A stretch of DNA of 64,000 nucleotides from Rhina ancylostomus (taxonomy: Eukaryota), in contig JARFYF010000074.1 in the NCBI GenBank assembly GCA_030265395.1, positions 45,236,645 to 45,300,644 of the forward strand. Reading direction: 5' to 3'. This document shows, piece by piece, positions 2,318-53,300 of the stretch; position 1 is the stretch's first letter; every line of letters begins with the position of its first letter. The notes below the pieces were generated by a model. That model was not told the DNA's origin and ran no database searches. It saw only the letters and a list, made by a program, of their open reading frames with translations. The position numbers and the translations under genes were made by a program.

Positions 2318-5300
2318 GTACGTGACTAATACAGGCTAGATTTATGCTTCTTGTTAACATTAGCCCTTTCCATCTGGATTTGATCCAGACTTGCCATCAT
2401 TTGTAAGTAAAAATTGCAGTATACTTGGCAGTAAAGCAATTAATTACACTCTTATAAGGAATTGTGTGCCTGCCTAATCTACAGAAGGTTTCAAGGATTT
2501 GCACTCCATGGGTTCTGGGCATTGATCTGCAGAAGACATGGACAATGACAGCTTTTAAATAATCTACGACTTTAATTTCAAGTTGTTGAATTGCTGTTCA
2601 GATATGTGATGCATTGGCAGGTAGCTAATTATAAGGGTCCATAACCTTACAACATCCTTTTAATATCTAAACCTCTTGGGATATGTAATTTTGTTCACTG
2701 AGCTAAAGAGACAAGTGGAATGTTTTGCAATGTCAGTAGCTGTTGGAATTCTTTTTCTGTCAAGGTGGAGCAAGGTTGTGCAAGACCTCTGCTGTTAAGG
2801 CATTGAAGTTAAAGATGAGAACAGTCCATTGACTCATTATCCTTGTGTTATCGGCAGACTATGTCAGTGCAGAATGCGATAATAAGGCAATGTTCTGAAA
2901 CAGTCCAGTTGTCATCACCCAGTTGCCAAGATTGGGAAGTGGATGGAATAGGACATTCTGTCCTTGATTTGTTGGGGCTCTACATGTAATCCACATGCTT
3001 CATTTCTATTTTTAGACTCTTAATAATGCATTTTCTATCCTAATATTTTGATATTAGTAATTTAGTTTTTTGTCTTGGCTACATTTGTCCGAGGTTTCAT
3101 AAGAGTGGAAGAAACCTTAGCTATAAATTCCATAACCAGAGTTAATGAGCAAAACAGAGACAATGTCAGCTTTTAAGAATTAGTTAAGTGGATGGTTAAA
3201 TAAAATAGGAATAAAGAAAAATAGAATAGGTGAGCATGAGACTACTGCTCACATGAAAAAAAACACCAACAGTATGGTTGTCTTAAAATACCCATTTCCA
3301 CATTGCAATTTTTAACTCTACAATGTGATGCCAGCAGTTTCATAATTATAAACAATCTAATTTAAAAATAAAATCAATCAACTTTTCTACACTGAAAGTT
3401 AAGTTGCCTGAGGTATATTTCTAGATGTTAAATGATTTGACACTGGTACCATTTCTCTTTTATACCAAGAAAATTATACACAGCAAAATATTTTCTAACT
3501 TAGATGAGTCCTATAAATGCCTTGAGAGATGAGGTCATGAGGTTTGTGGCCACTTTTGCAAATTTGAGAACGGTGAAGCTCGGTAGAGGATGTGAACTGT
3601 CCATTCTTTTAATAGAGAATTGAGAGGAAATTTGATAGCACTGAAGTGAGGCGTGCAGATAAATAGCAGTGCAGAAGAGAGAGATCTAGAGTTTAAAAAG
3701 TGGAGAAGTAAAAGTTATGGACAGAAACTTAGAAGATAAAGATGTGTATGTTTGATAGAGAAGTAAGGGGATTCATAGTAAAAGATGGGGGAAAAATATG
3801 AAAATACAGAGTATAAACGGAGGAAAGAGAAGGTAATTACAGACACATGATATCAGTTCAGTTTACATCTGGGTGACTTTATTCTGAATTATTTTTGCAG
3901 TGATAGTCCACAGACTCTGGGTTAATTCAGAAGGACACTTGTATTTTCAGTAACAAATAAAATAAATAATTTTTTTTCTTTTACATTTAATTTTCATTTA
4001 TGTAGCCCTTTTAAATATTCCTGGGCAAATCATGGAAACATTTTTGATCAGAAAAATTGTTGTCAAGATGCATAAAGATAAATTAGGGCAGGAGAAGTTT
4101 GGGGTAGGGTGGGGATTTCAGAGCTTGGCGCATTGCAATGATGGATCGAGTAAATTAGGGGATGCTGAAGAGAGCAGAATAGAAGGAATGTAGATTTCTT
4201 GGGGTTATTAGGGCTAGACTCTAAAAATGCTGCTGTAATGTACAGCCAATTTGTAAACAGCAATTAAGTTATGTGTCAAGATACTCAGCTTTAGTAGAGG
4301 CATAAATGTTGGCCCAGATACTGGAAGATACAATACTGTCTTGGAATCTTTTACACTCATTTGTAGCATTTGTGGCGGGAGATACAGACTTAATATTTCA
4401 GGTCAACTACTTTTAATTGAACTTGAACTTCTGGTTCATACTTGAAAGATATTTTAATATTTTTTCATTTAATTAATCTTTATTGTCAATGCCCCTGTTT
4501 TTAATGAGATGGGCCAATTTTCTATTCTTTGTTAACTTGCTTCCTATTCTTGTGTCTTTTATTCTGCCAGTAATTGCTATTTTTCAAACTGACATTGAAT
4601 TGTCCATTATTGGAAGGGAGTGGGTGTCTGCTTTTAAGTCATCAATGTAAATTCTCCAGCTGAAGATTTCTCTGCTGCCTAAGAATGATAGTTTTGCTAC
4701 TTGGATGCAAGACTCAGACATGATTAGAATGGCTTTATTACCTTTTCACTTAGTCCCAATTTTTCAAGCTGGTTATTTTGTATCTGCAACATGACAAATT
4801 TATTATTAAATGGAGTACAGTTTATTGCCTGCATATGTCATTGAAAATAGCATTCCATAAATGATGCATCAGGCTGCTGGATTTATCATATATTAATAAA
4901 AATTAAGGTTAATTGCTTGGTAACACAGCAAATTAATTGGGGTCTTCCATCTGGGGAAAGTTTAGTCATGTTAACTTGATTGAATCAGAACAAAGGAATT
5001 ATCACAAAACAGAAGGAGACCATTTGCCCCATCAAGCCCTTTGTAAGAGCATCCAATTATTCCCATTCCCTGGTTCATTCCCCATTACCTGGCTATGTTT
5101 TTAGTCCCTCTATTATGCTCTATATATTCAATTCCCTCTTGGAAGCTCTGGTTCTGCTAACACCATTTCCTACAGTGAATTCCAGATCATGACTGCTAAC
5201 TGCAGGAAAATGTTTCTCCCTTCCCAATCACACCTGGTTCTTTCTGGTTACTATTAAGGTGCATCCTCTGGTTCTGGACTCTGCTACCAATGGAGACAGT

Positions 5301-8300
5301 TTCTTTTTGTTCTCTTTGTCTTTATAGTTGTTAATTTGCACACTCCTAACAAAAGATTCCTCGACTTTAAGGAGAAAAGCCCATTTTCTCCAATCCATCC
5401 TCTCTCTTTCCTCAGGACCATCTTGCTATTACCATAAAATTGAATCCATTAGTACTCATTTAGTACCTGTGTCTGGCTTCTGCTCTCCTGTTTGCTGTAC
5501 CAACATGCTCATTGATAGTCTTGTATTTTTTCTGTGCCCTTGTTTTTTTTCACTAATCTCTCTTTGCTTTTTTAGTATTTTTGCCTGATCTTCACCTCGT
5601 GTTTATCATTTAACCCATTCTATTCTTCTTACTCTTTTATTGTCTAATATTTACCCCTAAAGGCATGTATCTACAATGTTCCAAAATCATTCTTTTGAAG
5701 ATGCTGATTGTTCACTTACAATTTTGTCACCAACTTTTGTTTCCATTTTCAGCGGACTGAAATTGCCCTTTTTCCAACCATATATTTTACCTCTGATCAC
5801 GTTGTGTTATTTTCCATTCCCAAATAAACCTGATGATTAGATGATCAATTTTCCCATAGTGATACCTGTTCCACTTAAACCATCTCATATCTCAGAACTA
5901 ATCCAGCAATGTCTCTTTCCCTTAAAAAGCAAAAAAAACCTGCAAAAGTTGGACATCTGAAGGAAAAACAAAAATTGATGGAAGTACTTAGCAGGTCAAG
6001 CAGTATCTGGGGAGTTTTGATGAAAGGATCATGCACCTGAAACATAATTCAATTTCTCTCTTCAGAGAGATTTGCTTGATCTACTGAGTATTTACAGCAG
6101 TTTGTTTTTGTCATGTTTCCTTTCTTAATAGGCTATAAACACATGGATAAAGTTCTCATGAAGCTTGTTTAGAAATATTTTGCTCTTTGCATCTTTCTTC
6201 CATTGTCACTTTTCTATATAGTAAATGAAACTCAAACAACTACAAATCTGAAATAATAAAAATGTTTGATACACTCAGCAGGTCAGGCAGCATCTGTGGA
6301 AAGAGAAATAGTTAACATTTTGGGTTGAAGATCTTTCACCAGAACTTGGAAAGAGAATGAGTTAGTTTGAAGTTGCAGAGAATGCAAGGGAAGGAATGGA
6401 AAGGGAGTATTGTTAGGGTGAGATCAGGGTCACTGAGGATAAGTAATTGGTAAAGTTATCTGATATGCAAATAAGGGGAGAGTAAATTGCACCTGGTGGT
6501 GGAATCTAATAGAATGGGGTGGAAATTGCAAAGAAATACTTCCTGCACTGTTGTGAGGAGTCCTAACATAAGCTTGAGTAACAGTACCTCATATTCCATC
6601 TGCACATTGCAGTCTTCCACACTCAATATCAAATTCAACAGTTTGGTAATTCACTTTCTCATGTGTGGGTCACTCATCTGCAATATTGATTGTTTTTCCC
6701 TCTCTACTAGTATGGCCTGGCTTGCTGGGCATTTCCTACAGTTCTGGGTTTAGGAAAGAAATTAAGAGGGCATAAAGAGGCCATCAAATATCCTTGACAT
6801 GAGATTAAGGAAAATCCCAAGATGTTCTCATATGTATATGGGAGCAAGAGGATAGCCAGAGAAAGAATGGGTCCCCTTAGGAACCAAAGTGGTAACCTAT
6901 GTGGGCAGGGTCCTAAATTAACATTTTTCATCTGTACTCACCAGCAAGAAGGACCTGGAAGATGGTGAATTCAGGGAGGGATGCATGGATAATCTGGAGC
7001 AGGTCAGTATTAAGAAGGATGAGGTGTTATATGTCATGTGATGCATTAGGGTTGATAAATCCCCAGGGCTGGACGAAATATCTCTCAGGTTGCCATGGGA
7101 AGCAAGAGAGAAGATAGCTGGGGCTCTGGTGGAGATTATTACATCTTAGTTAACCACAGGTGAAGTGGCAAAAGACTGGAGGATAGTTAATGTTATTCCT
7201 TTGTTTAAGAGGGCAACAGGGATAAGCCAGGTCACTACAGGCTGGTGAGTCTTGGGTCAGTGGTAAGGAAATTATTGGTGAAAATCCTAAGGAATAGACT
7301 TTATAGAAAGTCAGGGGCTCGTCAAGTATAGTCAGAATAGCTTTGTGTGGGAAAATCCTGCCTCACTAATTTGACTGAGTGTTTTTTTGAGGAGATAACT
7401 CAAAATGACTAATGAAGACAAGTGGGTAGGTATCTATATGGACTTTAATACGGCCTTTGACAAGGTCCCATGTGGTAGGCTGGTCCAGAAGGTTATGGTT
7501 AATGGGATCTGAGGCAAGCTGGCTAATTGGAACTAAACTTGGCTTGATGATAAAAGGCAGAGGGCAATAGTGGAAGGATGCTTCTCTGGTTGGGGCACAA
7601 AATATAAAAGTTGAGGTGTTGTGTTGCAACTTTACAAAATGCTTTGTAAAGTTCCATAGAGACTGCAGTGGAGTGTTGTGTGCAATTCTGGTCCCCACAC
7701 TATAGGAAGGATGTGGTTGCGTACAAGAGTGCAGAGGAGATTCACCAGGATGTTGGCTAGATTGGAGGACTTTAGAAATGGGGAGAGATTGGATAGAATG
7801 GTTTGTTTTCCCTGGAACAAAGGAGGCCAAGGGGGCAACCTGATAGATGTAAATAAAATTATAAGAGGCATAGATGGAGTAGATGGTCAGAATCTCTTTC
7901 ACCATGATGGGGGTATCAAAAACCAGGGCATAAGTTTAAGGTGAGAGGAAGAGGTTTTAAAGGAGATTTGAGGGGGAAGTTTTAATAAACAGTCACTGCC
8001 AGAGGAAGTGGTAGGGTCATATACCATCACTACATTTAAGAAACATTTAGACAGGCACTTAAATAGGCAAGGTAAAGAAGGAAATGGACCTTGTCCAGGC
8101 AAATGGGATTGGTACAGATGGGGGAAAAGGTGGGCATCGACATGGTGGGCTAGAGAACCCATTTTTGTGCTGTACAACTCTGACTCAAACAATGCTGCTG
8201 TAATGTGCAGCCAATTTGTAAACAGCAATTAAGTGACGTGTCAAGATACTCAGCTTTAGTAGAGGCATAAATGTTGGCCCAGATGCTGGAAGATACAATA

Positions 8301-11300: not shown

Positions 11301-14300
11301 CCTTTTGTGCATCTACCACCCATACAGCCATCATAATCCAGATCATAATTACTCACTAGTGATTGAGTCTTCCTCATTTCTCCTTTGGTTCTTTTGCAAG
11401 TCACCTTAAATCTATGTTGTTTGGTTTCCATTCCTCACACCAAGGGGAATAGTACCTCTTTATTCATTTTGCCTAAATCCTTCTTGATTTTGAGTACATC
11501 TTCCAATTTTTTTGGCATAAGGAGAACAACCATATTTTATCCATTTATTTGAGTTCACTCATCTCCCGAACTATTCTAGTAAATCATTTCTGCACAGAGT
11601 TCAACATAACTTTTATATTCTAGCCTTATCTATAATGTTTAAGATCCAATGCGTTTTATTTAACTTGTGCTGCTGTCATCAAAAATTTGTGCAGGTTTCA
11701 CTCCAGGTTTCTCAGCTTCTGCAGCCCCCTTTGGAATAGTATCTTGTATATTATTTTACCTCTGTGTTTTTCCACCAAGAAGGCTTCATTTTGCAATTCT
11801 CATTCCTTATTGCTTCTTCACCACCAAGGTTAATGATGTGCTGATAGTTGCAGGGTTTATCCTTAGTTTCTCGATTCAACAATGTTGGAACATTTGTAGT
11901 TTTCCAGCCCCCTACCACCCTCTTTGTCAAAATAGAATTGAAAGATAATGGATAGTAGTTTGCAGGTTTGCACTTGTATTTCACTGAGCAANNNNNNNNN
12001 NNNNNNNNNNNNNNNNNNNNNNNNNNNNNNNNNNNNNNNNNNNNNNNNNNNNNNNNNNNNNNNNNNNNNNNNNNNNNNNNNNNNNNNNNNNTTCTGAATA
12101 TTATCATCGGCAAGCTTCACATTTACTGCTGTGACGTGATCTTGCTGTTCAGGTAGCTTGGACAGTCACTTCCCTTATCTGGGAATTACATTAAACAGCA
12201 TAATAATTTCCAGACCTTGGTGACCGTGACGCACACTCCTGCCTCTCAGGATTTCAAAATCTGATACTTGGCATCAGATCAGCTATCTGCAACAGCACTT
12301 TGAGCCAGACCATTTCGTATAAAAATAGCTCTCAAGATTCAGCCAGCTGTGATGTTTGACATTAAAGCACAGATAGATTGGACTGTGCTCATTTTGCTCT
12401 TTGCTGTAATAAAACATAAAGCAACACATTTTGTTACTCATGATTAGTAGAGATGTAAAGGAAAGGCTACACTTATGTGGGACTAACATTCAATTATAAT
12501 GTGATAGAATATTCATGAATGGTCAAGATGGATGATGTGTTGTCATAATGTGTTTTAAAAAATGAATTGGTTTGAAGTTGTTCAGAGAATTGTTTTGGTG
12601 TAAGTGATTCTTTGATTTAAAACTTAGCCTTTGATGACATGTGAGTACTCTTATTTTTCAAGGAAGCAAAACGTTTTCAAAATGTTGATAAATCATGGAT
12701 CAAAATTATGCAGCGAGCTCATGAGATTCCAGCTGTGGTCCAGTGTTGTGTAGGAGATGACATTATGGGGCAGCTTCTGCCTCACTTACAAGAGCAACTC
12801 GAAGTCTGTCAGAAATCACTAACAGGGTAAGAATTTTCTTTGTTATTTATTCATTCATGGGATATGAGTGCTTCGTGCAAGCCCAGCTTTTATTGTTTGC
12901 CCTTAATTGCTCCTGAACTAATGGCTTGCGAAGATGTCATTCAGACCAGTTTACATGTAACTCCAGTCCTACCAGTCTGGCTGCCTATAGCAAACCACTC
13001 AGTTCAACCAGCATAGCTCTCTAAAATTCTCCCAGTCCTCTGGGGTTTTACTTTTCTTGGCAACTTTGTTAGCCTCTCCTCATAGTTCTTATTAGTCCTT
13101 TATTAACCACATGGAGCTTTTATTTTTCAGTGGAATTTTGAAAATGCAAATTTAAAATCCCAACGGAAAATCATCTAATCTAAACGTGCTTTCTCAAAAC
13201 AAAATAGCCAGGTTAGTTGGAATCATAGAATCTTGAAAATTTATGACATTAAAGGGAGCTATTTAACCCATTACATGCCAAACAGACATAGCCTTCTCTT
13301 AGCAAATCAGAGGCATCTAAAACTAGAAGGCATAGAATTAGGGTAAGGGGCAAGAAGTTTAGAGGGAATCAGAGGAGAGGAACCTAATGACCCAGGGAGT
13401 GGCTGGAATCTAGAATGCGTATGGGTGTGGTGGAGGCACATTCTCTCACAACATTTAAGAACTATTTACATGAGCACTTGAATTGCCAAAGCATATAAAG
13501 CTTTGGCCCAAGGGCTGGTAAAAGGGATAGGTATAGATAAATACTTGACGATCAGCATGGACATGGTGGGCAAAGGGCCTTCTTCTGCATGACTCCACAA
13601 CTCAGGCTTGTATGTGACACCCTATCTACAGCAATATGGTTGCTCTTAGCTTCCCTGTGAAATGGCCTAGCAAGCCACAGAACTTGTGCAATTAGAGACG
13701 TGCAACCAGTGCTGGCCTTGACCAGTGACACCTAAAGTCTGAACACTAAATAAAAGGAAGATTGGGAGATGGGTTTTCCCTCAGCAATGTAGGATGCATT
13801 CCATCTAGACCTGGTGACTTACCCACTTAATGTACATCCAAGATTTTCAGTATCTCCCTTCTATTAAGTTTTTCTCTATCCAGTAGCTCTCTGCATCCTT
13901 TTTTATTATGACTTTAGTAGCATCTTGTTTTGTGCAGATAGATGGAAAGAACTGGATATAAGAGGTTTTAGGACCCCCTTTTGCTTTGCCCCTCTCATCT
14001 CATTTTTCACTTTAACTCTGATTTTTCTTTATTTAAGCTGGTTCTTTCATGTATTGTCATCCAGACATTGATCTTATTGCCCTTTTTCTGCATCATCTTA
14101 CTTTTTATCTCTTTTATCACACAGGGGCTCTAGCTTTTATTGCCATATCTTTTTTTTCTCATAGAAATATACCTAAATACAACCTGAATAATTTGCTTTA
14201 CAAATCTTTAAAAATGGCAGGCCAAGACAAGAATCCAATATTTAAAAAAAAATATTTATGGGATCAGGATCTTTGTAAAAGAGGTCAAGTGCACTGAACC

Positions 14301-17300
14301 AAGGAGTTACACCAAACGTCTATAAAACACTGGTTTACCCACAAGCCGAGTACTATGTCCAGTTATAAAGAAAGGACCTCCAGGCCTTGGAGAGGGTGTG
14401 CAGAAAAGTTTTGGTGGAATATTCCTCGGGATCAGAGACTGCAGTTGTGTGTTTGAGCTTGTTCTCCTTGGAGCAGAGAAAAGTGAGCAATGTTTGATGC
14501 AAGTGATCAAAATCATCAAGGGTCCGGACTGAATAAATAAAGAGAAACTGCTTCCATTGGTAGAAGGTCAAAACCCTAGTAAAAGAAGCAACAGTGACAC
14601 AAGAGAAATCTTATTTTGCACTGTGATTCAGTGCATATATGTGCTGTGAATGTAAATTCAATAGTCATTTTCAGAAATTGGTTACATGCTTGAGGGAAGA
14701 AAATTGCTGGGCTGTCAAGAAAGAGGTGAAGAATGGGAATAACTGGATTGCTCCTGCACAGAGCTAACACATTCTTGATGGGCTGAAAGGCTTACCTATG
14801 TTCTATAACATTTTTGTGATTGTTGTTGCCCTCCTGGATCAATTTCCCAACTCTGTGAAATTGACCCTCTATCAACTAAATATTTTTATTCTACATTTCT
14901 CCAGCACCCACTCACTCCATTTACTCTAGATGAAACCTCTCACCCACTTGTTCAGAGTGGCCTCGTCCTCCCTGTCTCTGAAATCTCTTCCTGCCCTACA
15001 AAGGAGAATCTGAACCCCCAGCTCTGGCCTCTTGTCCATCCTTGCCCCATTGTTAGCAGCTTTGAACTCAGTCATCAAGGGAAACTGGAATTTCTCTCCT
15101 AACCTCCTCTGCCACTTCACCTTTCATGGACGCCTACTTCAAAGTTTCCCCTCAAAAATTCAATGATGCTTTTGAATACCCCCTTCTTTGGCACCATGGC
15201 AATGAATTTGCATCAAATTCCATACTCTGAATCATTTGGAGATGTTTTGCTATTTAATTGCAAGGTACTTTTAAAAAGAAAGCTGTCCTGGCACGCAAGT
15301 AACATTAATAAAGTAACATTTTGAGATTTTCTTTCAGGCTCAGTGATTTATGTGATTCTGAACCGATTTGTACAGTAATGTAATCTAGTCTGACGTACAC
15401 CATCTGCTATGAAAGTCCAAGCTGTCAAACAGCAACTCACACTGACTTCAGTTTTTATCCCAAGCACAGTCCCTCTCCTTCCTACCAGCCTCCTACTGCT
15501 GTCACCCCAGCCTCAATCACTGTACCATGGTGAGAAAACAGTCTTATGCGACAAAGTAGAGAGGATTTATTCTGTTGGATTAATGTCACTTTAAAAGGCA
15601 GTGGTTGTTCTTTTTAAAATGGCATCAGGCTGCTGTGCCTCTTGGATGCCTTTAAAGTAATTCCCTTTGATCTGTACTTTAATTGGCACTCCACAGGCTA
15701 TTTTATGTGACTGGTTGAAATGTAAATAGCCTTCAATGGATCGTTTAAAAATGTTTTAAATATTTGTCTGTGCCCTAAGTCGGTTGAAGCTTTATTGCAA
15801 ACTCATTATGCTGTGTGGATGTCTGAGACTGTATTGCTAAATGTGTGATCTAATATTTTTGGTATTGTTGCCTGGAGGTGCATTTTAGCATGAATAAATT
15901 ATCTGCCTGAAATACCGAGCTCTTTGATCTCGAGCTAGCTGAGTAAGTGAAGCTCCATTAAAATTGAATTTTATTTAGACTGTTTGGTGCTGGCACATTC
16001 AGCAAAGTAAAAGAAGAATGATGTCTAATCTGGAAGGCTTTGTATTAAGCACAGGGAAAAGGTCACTGACATTGTTTTGCCTGCATGAAGCAAGCCCTAG
16101 CCAACACTAAGGTACATGCTGATAAATGGCAAGTGACATTCATTCCAGTGAAGTGCCAGGCAATGAACATTACCAGTGAGGGAGACTATAAGCCAACTGC
16201 TGCTGACATTCAATAGCAATACTATCACAAGCTGCACTGTCAAAGCACTGGGAGTCACAATTATCCAGGAAGTTTACTGGTCAGATCAGAGCCTGGGTAT
16301 CTTACACCCTTGACTCGAGTTCAGTACCCCAATGTTTTCTACTGTCGACAAGGCACAAGTCAAGGATTGAATACTCTTCACTTGCCTGGATGTGTGCAGC
16401 TGCAACAATGATAAAGAGTCACGGCATTATCCAGCACTATGTTTGATTGCTCACTCACCGATCCCACTGATCATTCATTCTTTCCACCACCAATGGACTG
16501 TGGTTGCAGTGTAGACAATCTATAAAATGAGGTGCAATTACTTACCAACGCTACTCCAGTAACTCCCAAACCTGCAACCTTTATCACAAAGGCAGCAGGC
16601 AAATGTTGTTCTCTAAGTAGCACACCAGCTTGAATTCAAAATGTATCATCCATTTTTCACTGTCATTGGATGTTTAAATCTGGGAACTTCCTGCCCAACA
16701 GCATCAAGCATTTACCTTCACTAAAAGCTATTATGGTTCAGGATAAAGCTTTCTCAAGGGCAATAAGGGATGGGTAATATATGTTGGTCTTGTCAGCAGT
16801 GTCCATGTTTCATACATGAAAAGAAACTTGGGAATAAGATCTTATTTTTCGTGTTAACATCAAAAAACTAATTCAGTTTATTAGAGCTTTTTAAAAAAAT
16901 TGAGAAAAGATAAGCCAACCCTCATTAGCATATCCATGGCAGTATTACTCTTATCTCTGAATTGAAATTGGGAGGAGAAAGAATGAGATGTAATGCAAAA
17001 TCCAATGCGCAAAGTTAATCCAAAGTAGAGTATTTGTTACCTCAACCAAAGAGGGAAATCTCTCTCACAAAGATCAGATGAATTTTAGGGGCAAGGGATA
17101 ATGACATTAGAATGTTTGTTTGGTATTGTTTTCCGTGATGGGGGAAAAATAATTTCTTAATGCTGGAAAGTGAGATTTTAAACTATTGGATATCTAGGCA
17201 TCTCTTTTTTTAAAAATATGTCTTGTTTCATCATCATTTCATTAATACAAACATTCTTACAGGGCTTGACAGGGTCGATGAGGGTTTGTTTACTCTGGCT

Positions 17301-20300
17301 GAGATGTCTAGAACCTGGGCCCACAGTCTCAAAATAAGTGGTCAGCCATTCAGGACTAAGATGAGAAGAAACTTCTTCACCCACAGGGTGGTAAATCTTT
17401 TAATTCAACCACCCAAGAGGGCTGTGGAGATGAGATGAGATGATGAGATATCTTTATTAGTCACATGTACATCGAAACACACAGTGAAATACATCTTTTG
17501 CATAGAGTGTTCTTGGGGCAGCCTGCAAGTGTCGCTGAGGGCTATGGAGGCTAAGTTCACCATTAATATGTTTTTAGATATTAAAGAAATCAAGGGATAT
17601 GGAATTAATTCAGAAAAGTGGAGCTGAGGTAAAAGACCAGCCAAATGACAAGAGTAGGCACAATGGGCTGAATGGCCTAGTCTTTCTGTTTCTTATGTTA
17701 TCATATTCTTTCTTTGCCCTTCCCTGTCAGTATGTCTGTTCACCTGGGTCATCCCCTTGCTGTGATGTAGTAATGATCCAACAACCAGAGTTTCACACTG
17801 GCGGCTGATATTTGTTTACTGGCCTTGCATGAACACATTATGACTATGAAATATAGCTTGCTGAAGTGAACCAAGTAAACTTGAGCAACCGATGGTGTAG
17901 AGCCTCAGATCCCAGCTTTCTCCTGCCTTTCATAAGCTAAAATGTCACACTTCCTGCTGAATTTTTATTTAGCTGAGACTTGAGCTGTGCAGACAGGTCC
18001 TGGTCTTTGTTTAATTCTGACAAGCCCATCAATAAAGCAAGGAATTTGTGGAGTGACTGGCTAATCCCTCAGATGTGTATTGACTAAGACCTATTTGCTG
18101 GCCATGTTATTTCAAATGATGACTCGGCTCTGTGGAAAGACCATGGTAATTTTGCAGTTTCAAATATAAACAGTATTTGTTATGTGCTCTTAACGTCTCT
18201 GACAAGTTTTTCCTTCTCATTGTTCAGCGGGTGGTCTTCAGGAAATTGCCACAAAGTTTGACAATCAAAGTGTGATGTATGGATTCTGCAGCATCAAGGA
18301 CTCTGGTTCTGGCCTGCCCAAATATGTCCTGATAAACTGGGTATGTCATTTTTCATTTCAGTTGCACTGTTTTTAATGGATGCAAATCATCAACAATTAA
18401 TGTTCCAGATTATACTGAGTAAGGACAAGACTGCAAGCGTTCACGCTGAGACTGATAGGAACAAAGGTTTTTAGGCTTGTGTGGAAATCCCAAAGTTGAG
18501 GGGGTGAGTGAACCAGTGTAAATTTGCAGACTGTGCTGTTTGGACCCTTTGTCAGTAGAACTGAAGGAAATCACTTCCCTTTCAGATGTATCCAGAAACA
18601 CTTGCATTTAGTTGCATTAGGTCAAGAAAATTTTTAGGTAATAATTATTGCTTATGACCTATCTGGCCCTAAAAAATATCATGAACAGTAAGTTCCTAGC
18701 ATGTCAGTGATGGGCAGCCTGCTGTTACTGCTGACCTACAAAAAGTCTTCAGACTTGCCTTGTGCAATCCTCTGGCTGAAAGAAGCTACTGCCCACTGCA
18801 GCTTATTTAGAATGGTTCAACACTTAACAGTAAGCACTGCTGCTTGATGGCTTCAGGGTTCAATCCTAACCTCTGCTCCTGTATGTATTGAGTTTGCACG
18901 TTCTCCCTGCTGCTGGGTAGGTTTTCTCCCACGTCCCAAAAGTGTGCTGGTAAGTTAATGGGTTACTGTCAATTACCTGGTGGTTAACTGGCAAAAGAAT
19001 TGAAGACGAGATCATGAGCATGTGAGAGAGAATAAGTTGGTACATGGAAAGTGGGCAGGCAAGACCTATTCACAAAAAGATGGGAAGTAACTGTTTAAAG
19101 AGCTGTGTGAAGTTTTTAAAAGATTTTAAATTATTAAATAAAAAAACGAAAAATAATTGAAAAGTTAGTTGGCTTTAAAGCATTAAAATTAAAACAATTT
19201 TTAAAATCTATGAATACCATTGCTTACTTTGGACCCAAAAATCCTGGTTGTCCTCCAATAAAATGTGTCAGGTCCAATCACTGGTTGTTCATGAAGAAGT
19301 TCCACTGTAAATGTTGGCACACTGGATTCCATGAGGAGTCCGCTGTTGGGCCATGGAGAAAGAATCACTGGCCAACAGCTACGCTGCAGATTTTGGGCTT
19401 CCTCATTTCCACATGCACACATGGAAATCCTGAACTTGCTCTTATGTAGGGAATTGGTGGCAGTTAGCTGCAGAGCTATTGGCACATCTCTGCAAAATAC
19501 CAAATCATTATTTCAAATTTTAAAGAACCTTAAATTAATTTTATAAGTTCATTGCACACTTCAGCTGCTTTAATTATGTGCATTTTCCAACTGAAATTCT
19601 TTATTTTTACCTAACAACATATGATAACAGAAAAAAATAGTTACAGGGATGACTTGAGTTTGTGGGAAATTTCTAAACCATTCCTTACATTATCCTGCAG
19701 TTATCCCAGTAGTGACTCCCTGTTAACTGGGCCTACAGCTCTATGCTGCACCTCTCTCAGTATCCTCTGAAAAACCCAGCAAGCCTCGTTCCATCAGTGA
19801 CCCCCTTCTACTCTTTCACCAACCTCCTGAGGGGGCTAATTTTACCATTCTCCTTCCCATTCAATGTGGACAAGCATTTGATGTGAGAGTGACCAGAGAG
19901 ATAAATTCCCTATAATCTGCTGCATATGAAGTTGTATATTTTAGTTAAACCATTGCTTTGGTGGGGCTTTCACCTTTTAAATCTTTTCCTTAGGTGGGTG
20001 AAGATGTGGATGATCATCGAAAATGTACATGTGCTAGTCACGTGCCCACAATTGCAGACTTCTTCCAGGCAAGCGTGCTTCTTTGTGTACTTCTGCATAC
20101 CCATCATTATGTCTAAGTAAACTGTCCCAGATATAATTCAGTCATTGACAATGACTTGTTAGATCAGGGAAATGCAATTCCTTCACAATTATTCACTTCT
20201 ACATTGTCCACTTTTGTAGAATGCATTGAATGAGATCTACTCATCAACTGTTTAGTGCTTACTTGTTAAATCTTAGTCTGCTGCAGATGATTAAACAGAA

Positions 20301-23300
20301 TGATTAAAATGAGAGAAAAACATCAAATGTAAAAGATATTTCAGCTTGATCATTGGGAGCTGCTGCTAGATACAATTGCCGTTGTTATGAAGTGTGAACC
20401 TTCAAATGAATAATTAAAAGGTTTAGAAACTTTTAGACTGTTGTGAAAAATATATGCCTTTAAGGATCCAGGATATGATGCTATGTGCCTGTGATGCTGT
20501 TGCAAGTAAATTTTTCATTACACCTGTGCATACATGTACTTGTGCATGTGATAATAAAACTCGACTTTGACTTTCACTTTGACTTTTAAATCTTCTGGCT
20601 ATTGCTAACTAGAGCTGGGATGTATAGAGCTGGTGGAGGAGTTAGTCTAGTTATGGCGCAATGATGTTTTGTTTTGAGCTCTCACTTGTTATGCAGTGAT
20701 CTCTGCAGAATTGCAGGAATATTGATGTCAGGGCTCAGCTGCAGTACACTACATGTGAAATATCCGACTGATGCTTGCTGTCAAGGCTCATATATGAAGC
20801 CTAACTACTTGTGCATGTAAAAAGGAAGCAGCAATAGGTCATTTAGCTGTACAAGCAGAAATTACTACTCATTTAGATCATGGGTGATATTCTTTGTTTT
20901 CTTATTCTAATACATAAGGAGCCCATTCATCCCATTTAATCTATACTGGCTCTGAGTATTCCCATCTGAGTCCTTTCCCCAATTATTTCCTTGTAGCCTT
21001 TTCTCACTCGGTGTCTATCGGCTCCCCTAATTCTCTTACTGCCCACCTACACTCGGGGTAATTTATAATAATCAATTAACCCACAGCACATCTTTGGGAT
21101 AGGGGAAAAAATCTGAACACACAGGGAAGCTCACAAAGTCACTGAGCGAATGTACAAACTCCATGGACACAGCATTTGAAATTGGAATCAAACTTGGGTC
21201 GCTGGTGTTGTACAGCAGGAGCACTAGCAGCTAAATCATTGTGCCATGGTATTCTGTCTCCATGTCCCTTAAATTATTTAGTATCCAAGAATGTATTGTT
21301 CATGTTCTGAAAAATACACAAGCATTCGTTGTCTTCTGGGATAGAGAATTCCAAAGGTGCTTTGAGTGAAGAAATTTCTCTTCATTTAATTTCAATCCTA
21401 AGTACTCAACTCTTTATTTGAGATAGTGACCCTAGTGTAAGTCATCTTATCCAGGGGTAACATCTATCATATAAGGATATGCGTGTTTGCAAAATATCAC
21501 CTTTCTAAACTTTAGGAAATATGGACACGGTCCAATCAATCTGTCCACTTAGCACAATTGTCTGATCTCATAAATTTATTTTAGAGAATCTACATTGCGC
21601 TACTTAAATCCTTCCTTGGGTAAGTAGGCTAAATTGCACACAGTATTCCAGTAGTCAAGAGCCCATGTAGTTCCTGCTTGTATGCTCACATCCAGTTTTA
21701 ATAAAGGCTAAAATACATTCCTGAGTGCATTTTGTTCCTGCATGTAAACTTCCTAATATAAATGTAAATACCTCCAAATAACAATATCAAAAAGTCTCTA
21801 ACAATTTAAAAATATTCCACTACTTTATTTTCCCTACCAAAATGTATATTTCTGCACATTTTATTTCATTTGCCACATTTTTGCCTACTCATTTAACCTG
21901 TCTTATCCTTTTGTCCCCTTGTGTTGTCCTGACAACTCATTTTCCTATTTGGCTTTGTATTGTCAGCAATACTTTAATTTTTTTTGGGATCCAGGCATTG
22001 TTGGCAAAGCCAGCATTTAATGCCTATCCCTAACTGCATTCAGAAAGTAATGGTGACCTGCCTTTTTGAATGACTGCAGTACTTCCAGTGAAAGTATTCC
22101 TACACTGCTGTTGGTTAGGATTTAAACCCTGGGATGATAAAGTGCCAGAAATACATTTCCAAATCAGAATGGTGTGCAACTTGGAGGAGAACCCACAGGA
22201 GGTGGTGGAGATTCATCTGCTGTCATTGTCCTTGTTGGGGTGGAGATCCCAGGTTTGAGAGGTATTTGGATACTTTACGTACAGTACCTTCATTGAATAA
22301 ATTTAAGTAGCTGAGCCTCAACTGCTGATCCTTGCAGAATCTGCAAAAATATTTATTCCATAGTCAATTAACCAGTGCCCAGTCTCTTGACTGCTAAGTT
22401 GGTGCCCTCTTGTGTAGTACCTTATTGAATGCTTTATGGAAAGTATTGGCTTTCCCTTATCGACATTCAAAAATTTCTTCACAAGCTTGTTTTCATAAAT
22501 CCGTGTTGACTCAGTCAGTCATATTTTCAGGTGTCCTACTACAATATCTCTGAAGAGAGATCCCTAGCAGTTCCNNNNNNNNNNNNNNNNNNNNNNNNNN
22601 NNNNNNNNNNNNNNNNNNNNNNNNNNNNNNNNNNNNNNNNNNNNNNNNNNNNNNNNNNNNNNNNNNNNNNNNNNTGAAGAGAGATCCCTAGCATTTCCCA
22701 TACCATTGGTGTCAATGCAAAGTAAAGAAGATGAGCAACATTCTCAAGCAAGAATCAGTTCTTTCAAGAGGTGGAGATGACGAAAGAAAAGGGAGGGGAG
22801 GATGTTTTGTACAATACTTTTCAGCTTCCTTAAAAAGTTTGTGCTTAATTTTCACCCTCTTTACCCGCTCTCTTTTCCCAATTCCAATCAGGGGGCAAAT
22901 GTTATTGTTAATGCCAGCAGTCCTGAGGATGTGGATTCCACTGCTATCCGGCAGAAGTTGACTAATGGCACGATGCACGTTTCAAGCCCAGTCTTGCGCC
23001 GACTCCACCTTAAAGAGGATGAAGACTTGCTGGGTCCAGTGGTGAGTGAAAGACAGAGTATCTGACAATAACTAAGGTACGAGGTGCTGGAGGCTGGCAG
23101 TGGAAATCGTGAATGTACAGGTTATTAGTCAACTGCTTTTTAGTTAATAAAAGTTATTAGCTTTAATGTTAAATAAATCCACCACCTTCAAAACCAAGCA
23201 ACCATGGCATTTATTCAAAGAGAGTAGAGCTTGAGTGTAAAATGACCTCTTTACTGTTTTACTGTATTTAACTATTATGTATTGGAAGTTTAATAAGAAT

Positions 23301-47300: not shown

Positions 47301-50300
47301 GGACTTGGATCCAGGAGTAGAATATGGCTATGCCTGGGAAGGAATGGGAGCTTAACAGCTCATGAGAACCAAGGCAGGATTAGACTATGGTTACAGGGAA
47401 TATATTGTTCATATATATTTAAAGTAAGTGCACAGCAGTTTTCAGAGGAAAGTGACAACTTTATTGTTCATTGAGCATTGCATGTGACTAATGATGAGAT
47501 GGGAACAGTGAATGTCCAAATGAAGGGAGATTTATGTGACTTTGACTGCAGCTTGATGATTTGATTATGGCTGTAAATGTAGAGGAATGTGAATATCTCT
47601 ATTTGGGGAAGTGCATCAGTGCACCACAGAATCCAACAGCAGGAATATTAACTAACCTATATAAATCAAGTGTTTGGACTNNNNNNNNNNNNNNNNNNNN
47701 NNNNNNNNNNNNNNNNNNNNNNNNNNNNNNNNNNNNNNNNNNNNNNNNNNNNNNNNNNNNNNNNNNNNNNNNNNNNNNNNCCTATATAAATCAAGTGTTT
47801 GGACTCATTTGTAATATTGAATCACATTCTAGATACCAAACTTAAGAGAATGCCAAGGCCTTAGTGAGGGTCTGGAGGAGATTTACCAGAATGACTTCCA
47901 GGATGAGAGAGTTCACTTATGTGAAGAGACTAGAGATATGGGGTTGCTCTACTTAAAAGCAGAGAAATATGATTAAATAGAGGTGTTCAAAATATAGGGT
48001 TTTGATATTGAGGACAGGTGGCAATGTCAAACACAAAAGGGAAGAGATTTAAAGTGACAGAAAGGAGTGTTTAAACAAGATCTGAAGGGTAAAACTTTTA
48101 CACAGAGTGGTTGATATCTGGAATGTGCTGACAGAGAAGGTGGGGGAATCAGACATGTGTAAAAGGACATTCAGACATAGGCATAGAAAGATACAGTCCT
48201 AATGTGGACAAATAGGATTAGTGTAGACGAGCAAAAAAATGTTGGCATAGATGTGGCACACTGAAAGATTTGTTTCTGTGACTATGACAGCGAGTCAGGT
48301 GATGGTAACCAGGTAATTTTGAGCAATCTGAGAATTTATACACAAGCTGACGTGATTAGGAAAGCAGCTACAGATTGGCAGGTATGATGTTGTGACCATC
48401 ACTGAGATGTGGCTAAAGGATGGATGCCTTTGGGAGTTGAACGTCCAAGGATACACGGTGTATCAGAAGGATAGGCAGGTAGGCAGAGGGGCGGTGTGAC
48501 TTTGCTGGTAAGAAATAATATTAAATCATTAGAAAGAAGTGACATAGAATTGGAAGGTGTAGGATCTTTATGGGTTGAGTTAAGAAATCACAAGGGTAAA
48601 AGGAACCTGATGACAGTTATAAACAGGCCTCCAAACAGCTGCCATGATGTGGACTACAAATTACAACAGGAAATAGAAAAGGCTTGTCAGAAGGGCAATG
48701 TTATGTTAATCGTGGGGGATTTTAACATGCTAGTGGATTGGGAAAATCAGGTTGGTACTGGATCTCAAGAGAGAGAATTTGTAGAATGTCTCTGAGATGG
48801 CTTTTTAGAACAGCTTGTTCTTGAGCCCACTAGGGGATCAGCCGTACTGGACTAGGTATTGTATAATGAACCAGAGGAGGTTAGAGAGCTTAAGGTGAAG
48901 GAACCCTTAGGAGGCAGTGATCACAACATGACTGAGTTCACTTTGAAATTTGAGAAGGAGAAGCCAAAATCCGATGTGTCATATTTCAGTGGAGTAAAGG
49001 AAACTACAGTGGCATGAGAGAGGAACTGGCCAAGGTTGACTGGAAAGGGACACTTGCAGGAAGGACGGCAGAGTAGAAATGGCTGGAATTTCTGTGAGAA
49101 GTGAGGAAAATGCAAGACAGATACAGTATATTCCAAAAAAGAAGACATTTTCGAATGGAAAAAGGACACAACCATGACTGACAAGAGAAGTCAAAGCCAA
49201 AGCAAAAACAAAGGAGAGGGCATACAAGGAAGCAAAAAATAGTGGGAAGATGGAGGATTGGGAAGCTTTTAAAAACTTACAAAAGACAACTAAGAAGGTC
49301 ATTAGGAAGGAAAAAATGAACTATGAAAGGAGGCTAGCAAATAATATCAGAGGACACTAAAAGCTTTTTCAAGTATATAAAGACTAAAAGACAGGCAAGA
49401 GTAGATATAGGACCAATAGAAAACAACTCTGGAGAAATTGTAATGGCAGGCAAGGAGATGGCAGAGGAGTTGAATGAGTATTTTCCATCAGTCTTCACTG
49501 AGGTAGACATCAGCAGTATACCGGACACTCAAGGGTGTCAGGGAAGAAGAGTGTGTGCAGTAACAATTACAACAGAGAAAGTACTCAGGAAACGGAATGG
49601 TCTAAGGGTAGATAAATCTCCCAGACCAGATGGAATGCACTCTTGTATTCTGAAGGAAGTAGCTGTAGAGATTGCAGAGGCTTTAGTAATGATCTTTCAA
49701 GAATCAATAGTTCTGGCATGGTTTCAGAGCACTGAAAAATTGCAAATGTCACTCCGCTATTTAAAAAGCAAATTATAGACCTGTTAGCCTGACATTGGCG
49801 GTTAGGAAGTTGTTGAAGTCAATTGTCAAGGATGAGGTTATGGAGTACCTGGAGGCACATGACAAAATAGGCTGAACTCAGCATGGTTTCTTTAAAGGAA
49901 AATCCTGCCTGGCAAACCTATTGCAATTATTTGAGGAAATTACAAGCAGGCTAGACAAAGAAGATGCAGTGGACGTTGTGTATTTTGATTTTCAGAAGGC
50001 TTTGGACAAGGTGCTGCACATGAGGAATTACAGGAAAGTTACAAGCATGGATAGAGCATTGGCTGATTGGCAGGAAGCAGAGAATGGGAATAAAAGGATC
50101 CCATTCTGGTTTGCTGCCAGTTACCAGTTGTGTTCCGCAGGGGTCCATGTTGGGACCACTTCTTTTTACGTTGTATATCAACTATTTTGAGTATGGAATA
50201 AATAGCTTTGTGGCTAAGTTTGCTGATGACACAAAGATAGTTGGAGGTGCAGGTAGAGTTCAGGAAACAGATTCTGCAGGGAGACTTGGATAGACTAGGA

Positions 50301-53300
50301 GAATGGGCAAAGAAGTGGCAAATGAAATACATTGTTGGAAAGTGTATGGTCATGCACNNNNNNNNNNNNNNNNNNNNNNNNNNNNNNNNNNNNNNNNNNN
50401 NNNNNNNNNNNNNNNNNNNNNNNNNNNNNNNNNNNNNNNNNNNNNNNNNNNNNNNNNGTTAAGGCAGAGATTGAAAGGTATCTGAGTAGCCAGGGCATCA
50501 AAGGTTATGGTGAGAAGCTGGGGGAGTGGGGCTAATGGGAGAATGGATGAGCTCATGATAGAATGGCAGAGCAGACTCGATGGACCGAATGGCCAACTTC
50601 TGCTCCCTTGTCTTATGGCTTTGCCCACGAGTGATAGAAATAAATTCAGTTTTAAATTTCAAAAGGGAGTAGGATAAAAATTATAGAGGAATATTTTTCA
50701 GAGCTATGTTAAATGGTCAGGGGAATGAGACCAATCGAATAGCTCTAAAAGCTGGCAGAGACACGATGGGTCAGGTGGCCTTCCTGTATGCTGCAAGATT
50801 CTATGATGTGGGTCATTTTTAACTCTGATCATTAGAAAGATTAATATAATTCATAAGATGCAGAGAAAAGGACCAGTGTATAGCTGTGAGATGGGTAGGA
50901 GGGGCCAGGATTTGGCTTTCTTTTTGATAGGGAGAAATGGTGATGTAGAACGTACAGTTTAATTAAGGGGAGGCTGTCCAAGTTCAAACTGGACTTACTG
51001 CACATTGTTGATGCATGTCCTCCCTCAAAACCTGAAGAAAAGTGTTTGGATACTTGATTATGGAAATCTATGACTTAAAAGTTCTGTGCTTTTTAAAAGT
51101 TTTCACTACCTGTGGTAACGAAAGAAGTCGGCAATCTATTTTGGTACAGTATATTCCTATGGGCAGAGAGTGCATGCAATTCATTACAACAAAAAAAATA
51201 GATAAGTAAATGGAGAACATGTATCCAAAGGATTAATGGTGTTATAGGCAAAATATGTACATTAAAGAATGCCCCGTGTTTAATATCATGATTCTTTTAT
51301 TTGTGGTCAATCTAGACAAGGCTGCACCTAGCTTTCCAGAAAAGCCACCCATTCGATGTGAAGAGCCTCTGCCAGCACAGAATGTGCCAAGCTATACTGA
51401 CGAACCTGCTCTGGTAGATATGGATGCTCCAAATCCTGTATGGCCTGAGGCACCCAGCTTTGTACACACTGAAGAGTCAGTGCATATTGAGCAGAGAGGT
51501 TTTACAAGTACTGAGGAACAAAGCCTTGTGGACATTGGGAAGCCACAAACAAATGACAATTTTCCACAAGTGAATGAGAATTTACTGGACCTTTTGGAGG
51601 CTAATGGAATAGACCAGCTACCATCCGAATCACACAGTGAGATAGCAGAGAAGCCATTGATCTACACCAGTACTGACGAAATGGAATTGATTTTAGACAT
51701 GAAAAGGCCACCACTGGATGAGACACATGCAGACATTGATGCAAATAGCCAACTACTTGTGAACTTCCAGGAATCAGCAGGGCAATATGCAGAATTAGAG
51801 CCCACTGAACTAGGGCAACAGCAGCAGCCACACAACAGTGGAGGAAGTGAGGAAGACAACTTGCTGTGTTTTGATAACAGTGAAGGGTTACCAGCGCCAC
51901 CTCCAGACTGCCTTGATTCACAGCAGTGGGAGAATATTCCAAGCCTCATAGAGCTCGAAGGCTCTCAACAGATGAGTGAAGACTTTTGCTTTGGAATGCA
52001 GGAGTTGCCCAAGCCCCAGGATGCAGAGGTAAGATGGGATTAAAAGGACAGTTGCAGTGTCACTCATTATTGTACTTGAAAGCAGGAAATATTTTTATTT
52101 TACTTAAAGTTACAGCAAGTGCATGGAGTTCAACTTTGATTTCTTTATTCTGGTTCCATGATATTAATCAAAATGTGCCAGAGTTAGCTTTAGATATGAC
52201 ATAATAGGACAGAGCCTCTTACAACAGGAAAACTGGTTGCAAACAGTAGTTCACAGCAGTGCAGGACAGATTACATTGAGCAAGTCTTTTCCAAAAATTG
52301 AACCTTGTGCAATCATCCTCCTTGTCCGGTTAGGGTAATATCTGAAATGAATGAACAAGATTGGATAGGTTTCTACAGGGTGTGAGCCAACAGTGTACGA
52401 TTTAGCACTGTACTGACAATCATTCAGATTACAGGTTTAGCTGGTGGAAATATATATATGTACTGTAGAATCTTTCTTATTTCCAAATTTCTAATTTCCT
52501 AGTTTGGAAGTAGACATATTGTACAGTAGGACATACAGATCTAAAGATCAGATAAATTGTTGAGGCAGAATAAACTTGGGTGCTGAAAATACCACACAAG
52601 ACATTTGTGCCCAGTGCTAGGACTTGATGTCTTTACAGAGGAAACATTCCATGAACATTGTATAAATAAACCTAGAGTCTGAGTAAATTATCTCTTCTGC
52701 CTTAAGATTTTACGTGTTACAACCTAGTTCACTGAGATATGTGTATACATTTTGTTGATTTGTTTGATGGATGGACTTTCTGATAGTGGGAACAGCTTTT
52801 GCTTAGTTACTCCGTCTCTAATCGTAGGATATAAAATTAATTACAAAATTGATGGTGATGAGTGCTTTGCTGAGATTTAGAATGTCTTGCCCGAAAGATT
52901 GCTGATAGCAGCTTTAATAGCAACTTTCAAAAGGGAATTGCACATAGATTTGAGCTTTGGAGATTAATTAGAACACGATGCATTGGTACACTATTAACAA
53001 TGCTTCAAAGAGCCATTACTGGCATAATGAACCTACAGCCACCTCCTGTGATTCTATTCACCAGGCACTGCAGCCATTGATTTCAAGTCAGAGGAGGGTG
53101 GAGGGGAAAGAGTGTGCAGCTGGGTTAAGTTTCTGTATTTTTCTCATTTTTAAATCTAACACAATTGATCTGTTTCTTTTATCGGCAATATATCATATTA
53201 AAGAGTGAAATGCAAATAAAAACCCCAATTATAAAAGTTTTGTTTCCAAGTTAAATAATCCTGTAAAGCACTGCTGTTTTTATCAGAATAATTTTAGATA

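What the first reader, a model, noticed from the sequence alone, without database searches (positions are those of the whole stretch)
12663..12826. Intact orphan axonemal dynein (DNAH5/DNAH8-type) exon inside drebrin intron 2, same strand
Seen: a 164-bp stop-free exon with strong splice sites (ttttcaAG / GTaaga) encoding [21 protein letters not shown]...[12 protein letters not shown]. It lies on the same gap-free stretch (12092-22574) as drebrin exons 3 and 4, 570 bp after an N-gap, and is followed at once by a LINE tail (~12840-12930). Knowledge: this peptide is the conserved DHC_N2/linker segment of outer-arm dyneins DNAH5/DNAH8, which are roughly 80-90-exon genes. I did not find the flanking exons (..GGDIAKQLP; YLEKKR..) in the window. 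Inference: this is a recent exon duplication/transduction, an interleaved gene, or a repeat-mediated chimeric contig. Spliced into drebrin's phase-1 intron it reads G-GA AGC AAA ACG TTT TCA AAA TGT TGA, so it would act as a poison exon.
Basis: partly seen in the sequence, partly recalled or inferred. Interest (0 to 1): 0.7.

Follow-up and report, generated by a model that had tools for sequence, protein, structure and literature searches.

The report
Misassembled dynein exon in drebrin intron
The exon is a real piece of a cilia motor gene (DNAH8 type) and fits a hole in that gene on another scaffold of the same genome, so its place inside drebrin is most likely an assembly error rather than biology.

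Summary
The exon is there as described: 164 nt, AG/GT, stop-free, DHC_N2. It is very likely misplaced. On scaffold C2 of the same assembly, a DNAH8-clade gene (locus B) has the exons before and after this one. Between them is a 1,775-N gap. The window exon restores B's reading frame; skipping it does not. Contigs of three other public runs bridge B's left gap edge into window 12096. Contigs of two of them run from window 13821 into B's right flank, through the YLEKKR exon. The implied fill is 1,764 nt against 1,775 N. The false join lies in a multicopy repeat motif at 13775-13821, not at the exon edge. In run X2 the drebrin-side sequence is preceded by other DNA. Contig depth over the piece is not doubled in X1, the run nearest the window (weak evidence). 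A very recent private duplication collapsed by the assembler is not strictly excluded (about 5%). The poison-exon arithmetic is right but moot. The scan noted a similar case elsewhere in this genome (e1-9902338), not tested here.

The parts
12092..13821 (+). Misplaced piece of the DNAH8-type gene at G000:C2 locus B (intron, exon, intron); fills the 1,775-N gap C2:94652946-94654720
   Evidence: gap; same contigs fit this piece and both gap flanks; fill 1,764 nt
12663..12826 (+). Dynein heavy chain exon (DHC_N2/linker), phase 0 to phase 2, 164 nt
13775..13821 (+). Junction zone: multicopy repeat motif shared by the dynein-side and drebrin-side sequence; inferred site of the false join
   Evidence: X3 and X7 dynein-side records fit up to 13821; X2 drebrin-side record fits from 13775; X1 records meet at 13775-13807; 31 other genomic matches, most starting at 13774-13791
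11992..12091 (.). 100-N gap (probably a placeholder of unknown size) at the left edge of the misplaced piece
   Evidence: 2 of the 6 100-N gaps in the window have overlapping flanks
13308..13603 (.). High-copy repeat remnant inside the dynein intron (LINE-like; family name recalled, not tested)
   Evidence: 38 of 40 scored matches fall here, 71-83% identity; depth spike
12839..12896 (.).
   Evidence: 81% match on C119; crossed by X1, X3 and X7 records
11796..11991 (+). Drebrin-intron flank left of the gap; in one related repeat copy it runs directly into the sequence at 13775-13831
   Evidence: L069: 1314-1513 then 1501-1557; 63% and 84% identity
2262..2317 (+). Drebrin exon upstream of the host intron
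18228..18340 (+). Drebrin exon downstream of the host intron (ADF-H domain)
19994..20068 (+). Next drebrin exon (GC donor)

Best explanation
Window 12092 to about 13800 is a stretch of the DNAH8-type gene on scaffold C2 (locus B) that the assembler likely joined into drebrin intron 2 by mistake. Shown: locus B has a sized gap exactly where this exon belongs, the piece fits the gap in length and frame, and contigs of other runs link it to both gap edges. Inferred: a short-read contig or gap-filling step extended leftwards from the drebrin intron through a 33-47 nt repeat motif at 13775-13821, which both introns carry in the same orientation. It crossed into the dynein intron and stopped at 12092, leaving a hole at C2 and a 100-N placeholder here. 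In the animal the exon would be an ordinary constitutive exon of a DNAH8 paralogue, and drebrin intron 2 would carry no dynein exon.
For: (1) Locus B has the upstream exon (C2:94654750-94654903), a 1,775-N gap, then the YLEKKR exon. In 6 of 6 reference dyneins, the residues matched by the window exon are uncovered in the 218 kb of locus B. The four other gamma-type loci each have their own copy of the exon. (2) B-up + window exon + B-down gives 140 stop-free codons; skipping the exon gives stops in 3 of 3 frames. (3) Left edge: the X3 record of 751 nt (depth 16.5) fits L035 6722-6790 with letters 683-751 and window 12092-12762 with letters 1-686. The X7 record of 154 nt (9.7) fits with letters 86-154 and 1-89. 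The loose ends of X2, X7 and X3 at the gap edge match window 12096-12125 at 28, 28 and 26 of 30 letters (counted by eye). (4) Right edge: the X3 record of 1,302 nt (14.2) and the X7 record of 1,281 nt (12.3) fit the window only up to 13821. They then fit B's right flank (L035 4946-4300, including the YLEKKR exon), with 38 letters between. (5) Fill 1,764 nt against 1,775 N. (6) The X2 record of 1,778 nt fits 13775-14684 only with letters 862-1778, so 861 other letters precede the drebrin side. (7) Against paralogue A the exon shows 14 synonymous and 1 non-synonymous codon differences in 54 codons. The neighbouring A-vs-B exons show 15/3 in 51 and 14/0 in 34, and intron similarity is absent, so the exon is not a copy of A. 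(8) Contig depth in X1 is 5.5 over the piece, 6.5 in the drebrin intron and 6.0 at B's flanks; in X2 it is 5.2 and 6.1.
Against: The bridging contigs come from other organisms (B, C, D); they show the ancestral arrangement, not this individual's. X1, the run nearest the window (7 of 8 listed pieces identical), has no listed contig across either edge of B's gap. Its two records at the junction overlap by 33 letters (13775-13807), which neither proves nor excludes the assembled join. Records were matched between by run, length, depth and complementary coordinates, not by id. The tool warns that contig depth is not copy number. A collapsed recent duplication would also leave a gap of matching size at the donor. 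The junction 33-mer occurs only once in the assembly (up to 2 mismatches), so an exact shared repeat is inferred, not seen.
Confidence: 0.93

Rival explanations
1. A very recent, real duplication: 1.76 kb of DNAH8 locus B was copied into drebrin intron 2 (for example by templated repair using the shared repeat motif) in this individual or population. The assembler collapsed the two identical copies, placed one here and left a gap at C2. The copy could act as a poison exon.
For: A collapse would also give a donor gap with matching edges. The right join is continuous sequence in the assembly. X1 records 4 and 5 overlap across 13775-13807. The outer flanks may be one repeat copy, as an insertion would leave. 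Splice sites are intact and the join into drebrin is frameshifting.
Against: No doubling of contig depth in X1 or X2 (weak). X2 has other DNA left of 13775. The left side is only an N-gap, with no sequence joining drebrin to the piece. Other lone dynein exons in this assembly also fall in spans missing at gapped home loci (by position only), which points to a recurring artefact.
Confidence: 0.05
2. An old exon duplication or L1-type transduction from the intact paralogue (locus A), now a conserved or decaying exon in drebrin.
For: The only close DNA match elsewhere in the assembly is locus A's exon (91% over 180 nt).
Against: Similarity stops at the exon edges. The 14:1 synonymous excess in the dynein frame equals paralogue-level divergence, which a dead or out-of-frame copy would not keep. 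Both flanking introns continue into locus B in other runs.
Confidence: 0.01
3. An interleaved or trans-spliced dynein gene whose exon really sits on another chromosome (a move, not a copy).
For: Split, trans-spliced DHC3 genes are described in Giardia and Spironucleus (PMC5100056, passage seen).
Against: The assembly itself sizes the gap at locus B at 1,775, within 11 of the fill, so the DNA is still there. No other dynein exon was found in the window. Relatives have the exon in place.
Confidence: 0.01

Closest known systems
Chimeric contig / mis-join with a misplaced exon in short-read vertebrate assemblies (PMC6211643; bioRxiv 10.1101/2020.05.22.110833)
   Same: A repeat at the join, a matching hole in the home gene and relatives lacking the adjacency. 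Passages seen: chimeric contigs join regions that are not adjacent; NGS mouse assemblies averaged 15,519 misplaced exons; about 5,000-8,000 mis-joins in short-read assemblies; a platypus VTG2 piece was wrongly placed in a Calpain-13 intron.
   Different: Nothing of principle. Which assembly step made this join was not determined.
DNAH8 (DHC3 class, outer-arm gamma-type heavy chain)
   Same: The exon is 85% identical to snake DNAH8 and catfish DNAH8-like, 77% to three DNAH5-labelled proteins, and 97% to a catshark protein over 48 columns. Loci A and B group with the DNAH8 references at 97/94 support.
   Different: This genome holds two neighbouring DNAH8-clade genes (93% identical over 207 columns). 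PMC5100056 lists two human class-3 genes, DNAH8 and DNAH5 (table passage).
Exon shuffling by L1 3' transduction / poison exons (recalled from general knowledge, no call)
   Same: An intact exon with its splice sites inside a foreign intron; inclusion would shift frame and stop.
   Different: The donor locus lacks the piece in the assembly instead of holding a second copy. No poly(A) tail is visible at either edge. Depth is not doubled.

Membership tests
Assembly mis-join (chimeric contig) | Home locus lacks the piece and has a gap of matching size | tested here: met
   1,775 N against 1,764 nt fill
Assembly mis-join (chimeric contig) | Independent sequence links the piece to the home locus on both sides | tested here: met
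   Left edge in 3 of 4 runs laid, right edge in 2 of 4; all from other organisms than X1
Assembly mis-join (chimeric contig) | Join lies in a repeat | tested here: met
   31 other genomic matches to 13700-14000, centred on 13775-13830
Assembly mis-join (chimeric contig) | No molecule of the assembled individual spans the assembled join; single-copy read depth | tested here: inconclusive
   Only contigs were available. No listed record crosses 13774 to 13822; depth ratio about 0.85 in X1 and X2. Whether X1 is the assembled individual is unknown.
Real duplication / transduction | Two copies present (donor and insertion) | tested here: not met
   One copy in the assembly; no depth doubling. A collapsed private copy remains possible.
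Real duplication / transduction | Insertion hallmarks (target-site duplication, poly(A)) | tested here: inconclusive
   No poly(A) visible; the left junction is hidden by N
Poison exon of drebrin | Spliced into drebrin transcripts | not testable with these tools
   Needs RNA reads; see Tried and rejected
DNAH8 clade (DHC3) | Groups with DNAH8 rather than DNAH5 | tested here: met
   Tree of 12 rows, 292 columns, 97/94. The window exon was left out of the tree (48 columns) and placed by identity. Reference names are the sources' own labels.
DNAH8 clade (DHC3) | Full-length intact heavy chain at locus B | tested here: inconclusive
   Collinear exons from C2:94.74 to 94.59 Mb. References covered only the N-terminal and middle parts, and 5.8% of the 218 kb is N (60 gaps).

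The most novel reading that the evidence does not exclude
A fresh, private duplication has put an intact DNAH8 exon with 1.7 kb of its introns into drebrin intron 2 through a shared repeat motif, creating a ready-made poison exon caught at birth; the assembler collapsed the two copies.
Probability: 0.05. Interest if true: 0.45.

Novelty: not a real feature. Interest (0 to 1): 0.06.

Why it matters
As biology it matters little: the exon is an ordinary dynein exon in the wrong place. As quality control it matters for this genome. 'Orphan exon inside another gene's intron' findings here should first be checked against gaps in the home gene. Locus B would be mis-annotated as frameshifted, and drebrin intron 2 as about 1.8 kb too long. 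If the minor rival were true, it would be a rare snapshot of exon capture at its start.

Tried and rejected
No RNA holder listed for 12092-13300; no evidence on expression either way. Runs X3 and X7 gave little or no cover over window 13926-16000; uncovered parts prove nothing and were not used. X1 left holes at both edges of B's gap. Direct blastn of the window against B's gap flanks found no overlap at the gap edges; the assembly's own ends only abut by 3-4 letters on the left and are 38 apart on the right. The junction 33-mer has no second copy in the assembly at up to 2 mismatches. B's right flank did not match any of 15 related repeat loci, so I could not show that it continues the same repeat family. 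Of 8 repeat loci compared, 3 matched both outer flanks, at discordant spacings (about 0, 510 and 560 extra letters), so the true drebrin gap size is not fixed. Locus A as donor was rejected (exon-only similarity). DNAHX (10.1101/2025.01.18.633724, passages only) was considered as a name for an extra locus and not tested. One paper search for a DNAH8 tandem duplication in elasmobranchs (listing only, 10 of 82 shown) and one wider search (11 of 12 listed) showed no such report in the titles and abstract starts shown; this is not proof of absence. Supplements were not read; those of PMC5100056 may list cartilaginous-fish DHC3 duplicates.

Full report
Observation. Window 12663-12826 is a 164-nt stop-free stretch between an AG acceptor and a GTAAGA donor. 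It encodes 54 residues of the dynein DHC_N2 region (Pfam E 2.9e-13; best solved-structure hits are a 4,730-aa chain and DNAH5). It lies 571 bases after the 100-N gap at 11992-12091, on the N-free stretch 12092-22574. That stretch also carries drebrin exons at 18228-18340 and 19994-20068, which join the exon at 2262-2317 in one open frame (best PDB hit drebrin). In 6 of 6 reference dyneins the exon was the only hit in the window.

The home gene. The window is G000:C74:45236645-45300644. The peptide matches five places in the genome: the window, C2:94.28 Mb (98%), C84:102.57, C17:37.23 and C84:39.50. A Pfam scan showed a further gamma-type locus at C2:94.65 Mb (locus B) with the neighbouring exons but not this one. 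Its DNA shows the upstream exon ending in ...GGDIAKQLPK, 29 intron bases, 1,775 N, 314 bases, and then the YLEKKR exon. Across 218 kb of locus B, exons follow in order from 94.74 to 94.59 Mb, and in 6 of 6 references the residues covered by the window exon are uncovered at B. Inserting the window exon gives 140 stop-free codons; skipping it gives stops in all three frames. Loci A and B are 93% identical over 207 columns and fall with the DNAH8 references (97/94; 12 rows, the 48-column window row left out). The window exon differs from A's by 14 synonymous and 1 non-synonymous codon, in line with the A-vs-B differences in the two flanking exons. It has no intron similarity to A. So it is B's exon.

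Independent sequence. Twelve public runs hold part of 12092-13300; I laid four. On the window, contigs of X3 and X7 cover the piece at about 95% identity and stop fitting at 13821, with 940 further letters each. An X2 contig fits from 13775 rightwards and has 861 other letters to the left. On B's gap flanks, records of the same run, length and depth appear with complementary coordinates. X3 751 nt fits the upstream exon end and intron start with letters 683-751 and the window with letters 1-686; X7 154 nt fits with 86-154 and 1-89. X3 1,302 nt and X7 1,281 nt fit B's right flank, through the YLEKKR exon, 38 letters beyond window 13821. The loose ends at B's left edge match window 12096-12125 at 28/30 (X2), 28/30 (X7) and 26/30 (X3) (by eye). 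The implied fill is 1,764 nt against 1,775 N. Matching records across calls by length and depth is an inference, but four pairs agree to within a few letters.

The false join. The zone 13775-13821 is where dynein-side and drebrin-side contigs overlap. It is a multicopy motif: 31 other genomic matches, most beginning at 13774-13791. One related copy matches window 11796-11991 and then 13775-13831 back to back, suggesting the outer flanks are one repeat copy, but two other copies imply about 500 extra letters. The inferred mechanism is an assembler or gap-filler walking through this motif from one intron into the other.

What is not shown. X1 is nearly identical to the window and may or may not be the assembled individual. 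It has no listed contig over B's gap edges, and its two records at the junction overlap by 33 letters without crossing the whole zone. A recent exact duplication, collapsed by the assembler, would also leave a donor gap of matching size. Against it: contig depth over the piece is 5.5 against 6.5 and 6.0 in X1, and 5.2 against 6.1 in X2 (the tool warns that this is no copy number), and X2 lacks the adjacency. I leave it 5%.

A recurring pattern. Searches list seven other dynein pieces far from any dynein locus. I fetched six of them and three home loci. All three home stretches miss a span of the protein and hold N-gaps there. The C84:56.49 exons fall in the span missing at C46, and the C2:39.97 and C112:62.45 exons fall in spans missing at C70 and C51. 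This is by position only, with distant references that can miss exons, and was not tested with reads. An earlier AI note on this genome (e1-9902338) describes a similar lone exon and leaned to a real duplicate; I did not test it.

Comparison with what is known. This is a chimeric join with a misplaced exon, a common error class in short-read vertebrate assemblies (PMC6211643 and 10.1101/2020.05.22.110833, passages seen; listing only). The gene belongs to class DHC3 (DNAH8/DNAH5; PMC5100056, passages). The closest protein is from a catshark (98%), so the organism is probably a cartilaginous fish (inference). The repeat-family label 'LINE' is recalled and comes from no call.

Verdict. Real exon, wrong place: most likely an assembly artefact (0.93). 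Not a real feature; interest 0.06.

Noticed in passing
G000:C2:94.25-94.29 Mb (L037, L038) and C2:94.59-94.74 Mb (L035, L036, L040-L059): Two DNAH8-clade genes about 370 kb apart on one strand, 93% identical in protein over 207 columns, with unrelated introns: an old neighbouring duplication. With C84:102.57, C17:37.23 and C84:39.50 that makes five gamma-type outer-arm loci. X3 and X7 each show two exon versions as well.
   Followed up: partly
G000:C2:39.97, C112:62.45, C84:56.49, C66:2.63, C64:7.86, C52:67.94, C63:51.91 Mb (L088-L093): Other lone dynein exons far from any dynein locus. Several fall in protein spans missing at gapped home loci (C46, C51, C70), so probably the same artefact. 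The C66 piece (83% to a gamma-type reference) matches an exon that all five gamma-type loci already have, and is unexplained.
   Followed up: partly
L081:3163-7224 (G000:C7:501162-505223): Intron-less 1,353-aa dynein-like open frame (DHC_N2 plus AAA_6), divergent: only 2 PDB sequences at E below 1e-50. Could be a large exon, a retrocopy or contamination.
   Followed up: partly
window 20068-20074: The drebrin exon at 19994-20068 appears to use a GC donor.
   Followed up: no
window 22575-22674 and 47681-47780: The flanks of these 100-N gaps overlap by 24-25 letters, so they are negative gaps; 2 of 10 gaps in the window show this.
   Followed up: yes
window 51237-52043 (+): 268-aa acidic, proline-rich open frame, likely the large C-terminal drebrin exon; not tested.
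   Followed up: no
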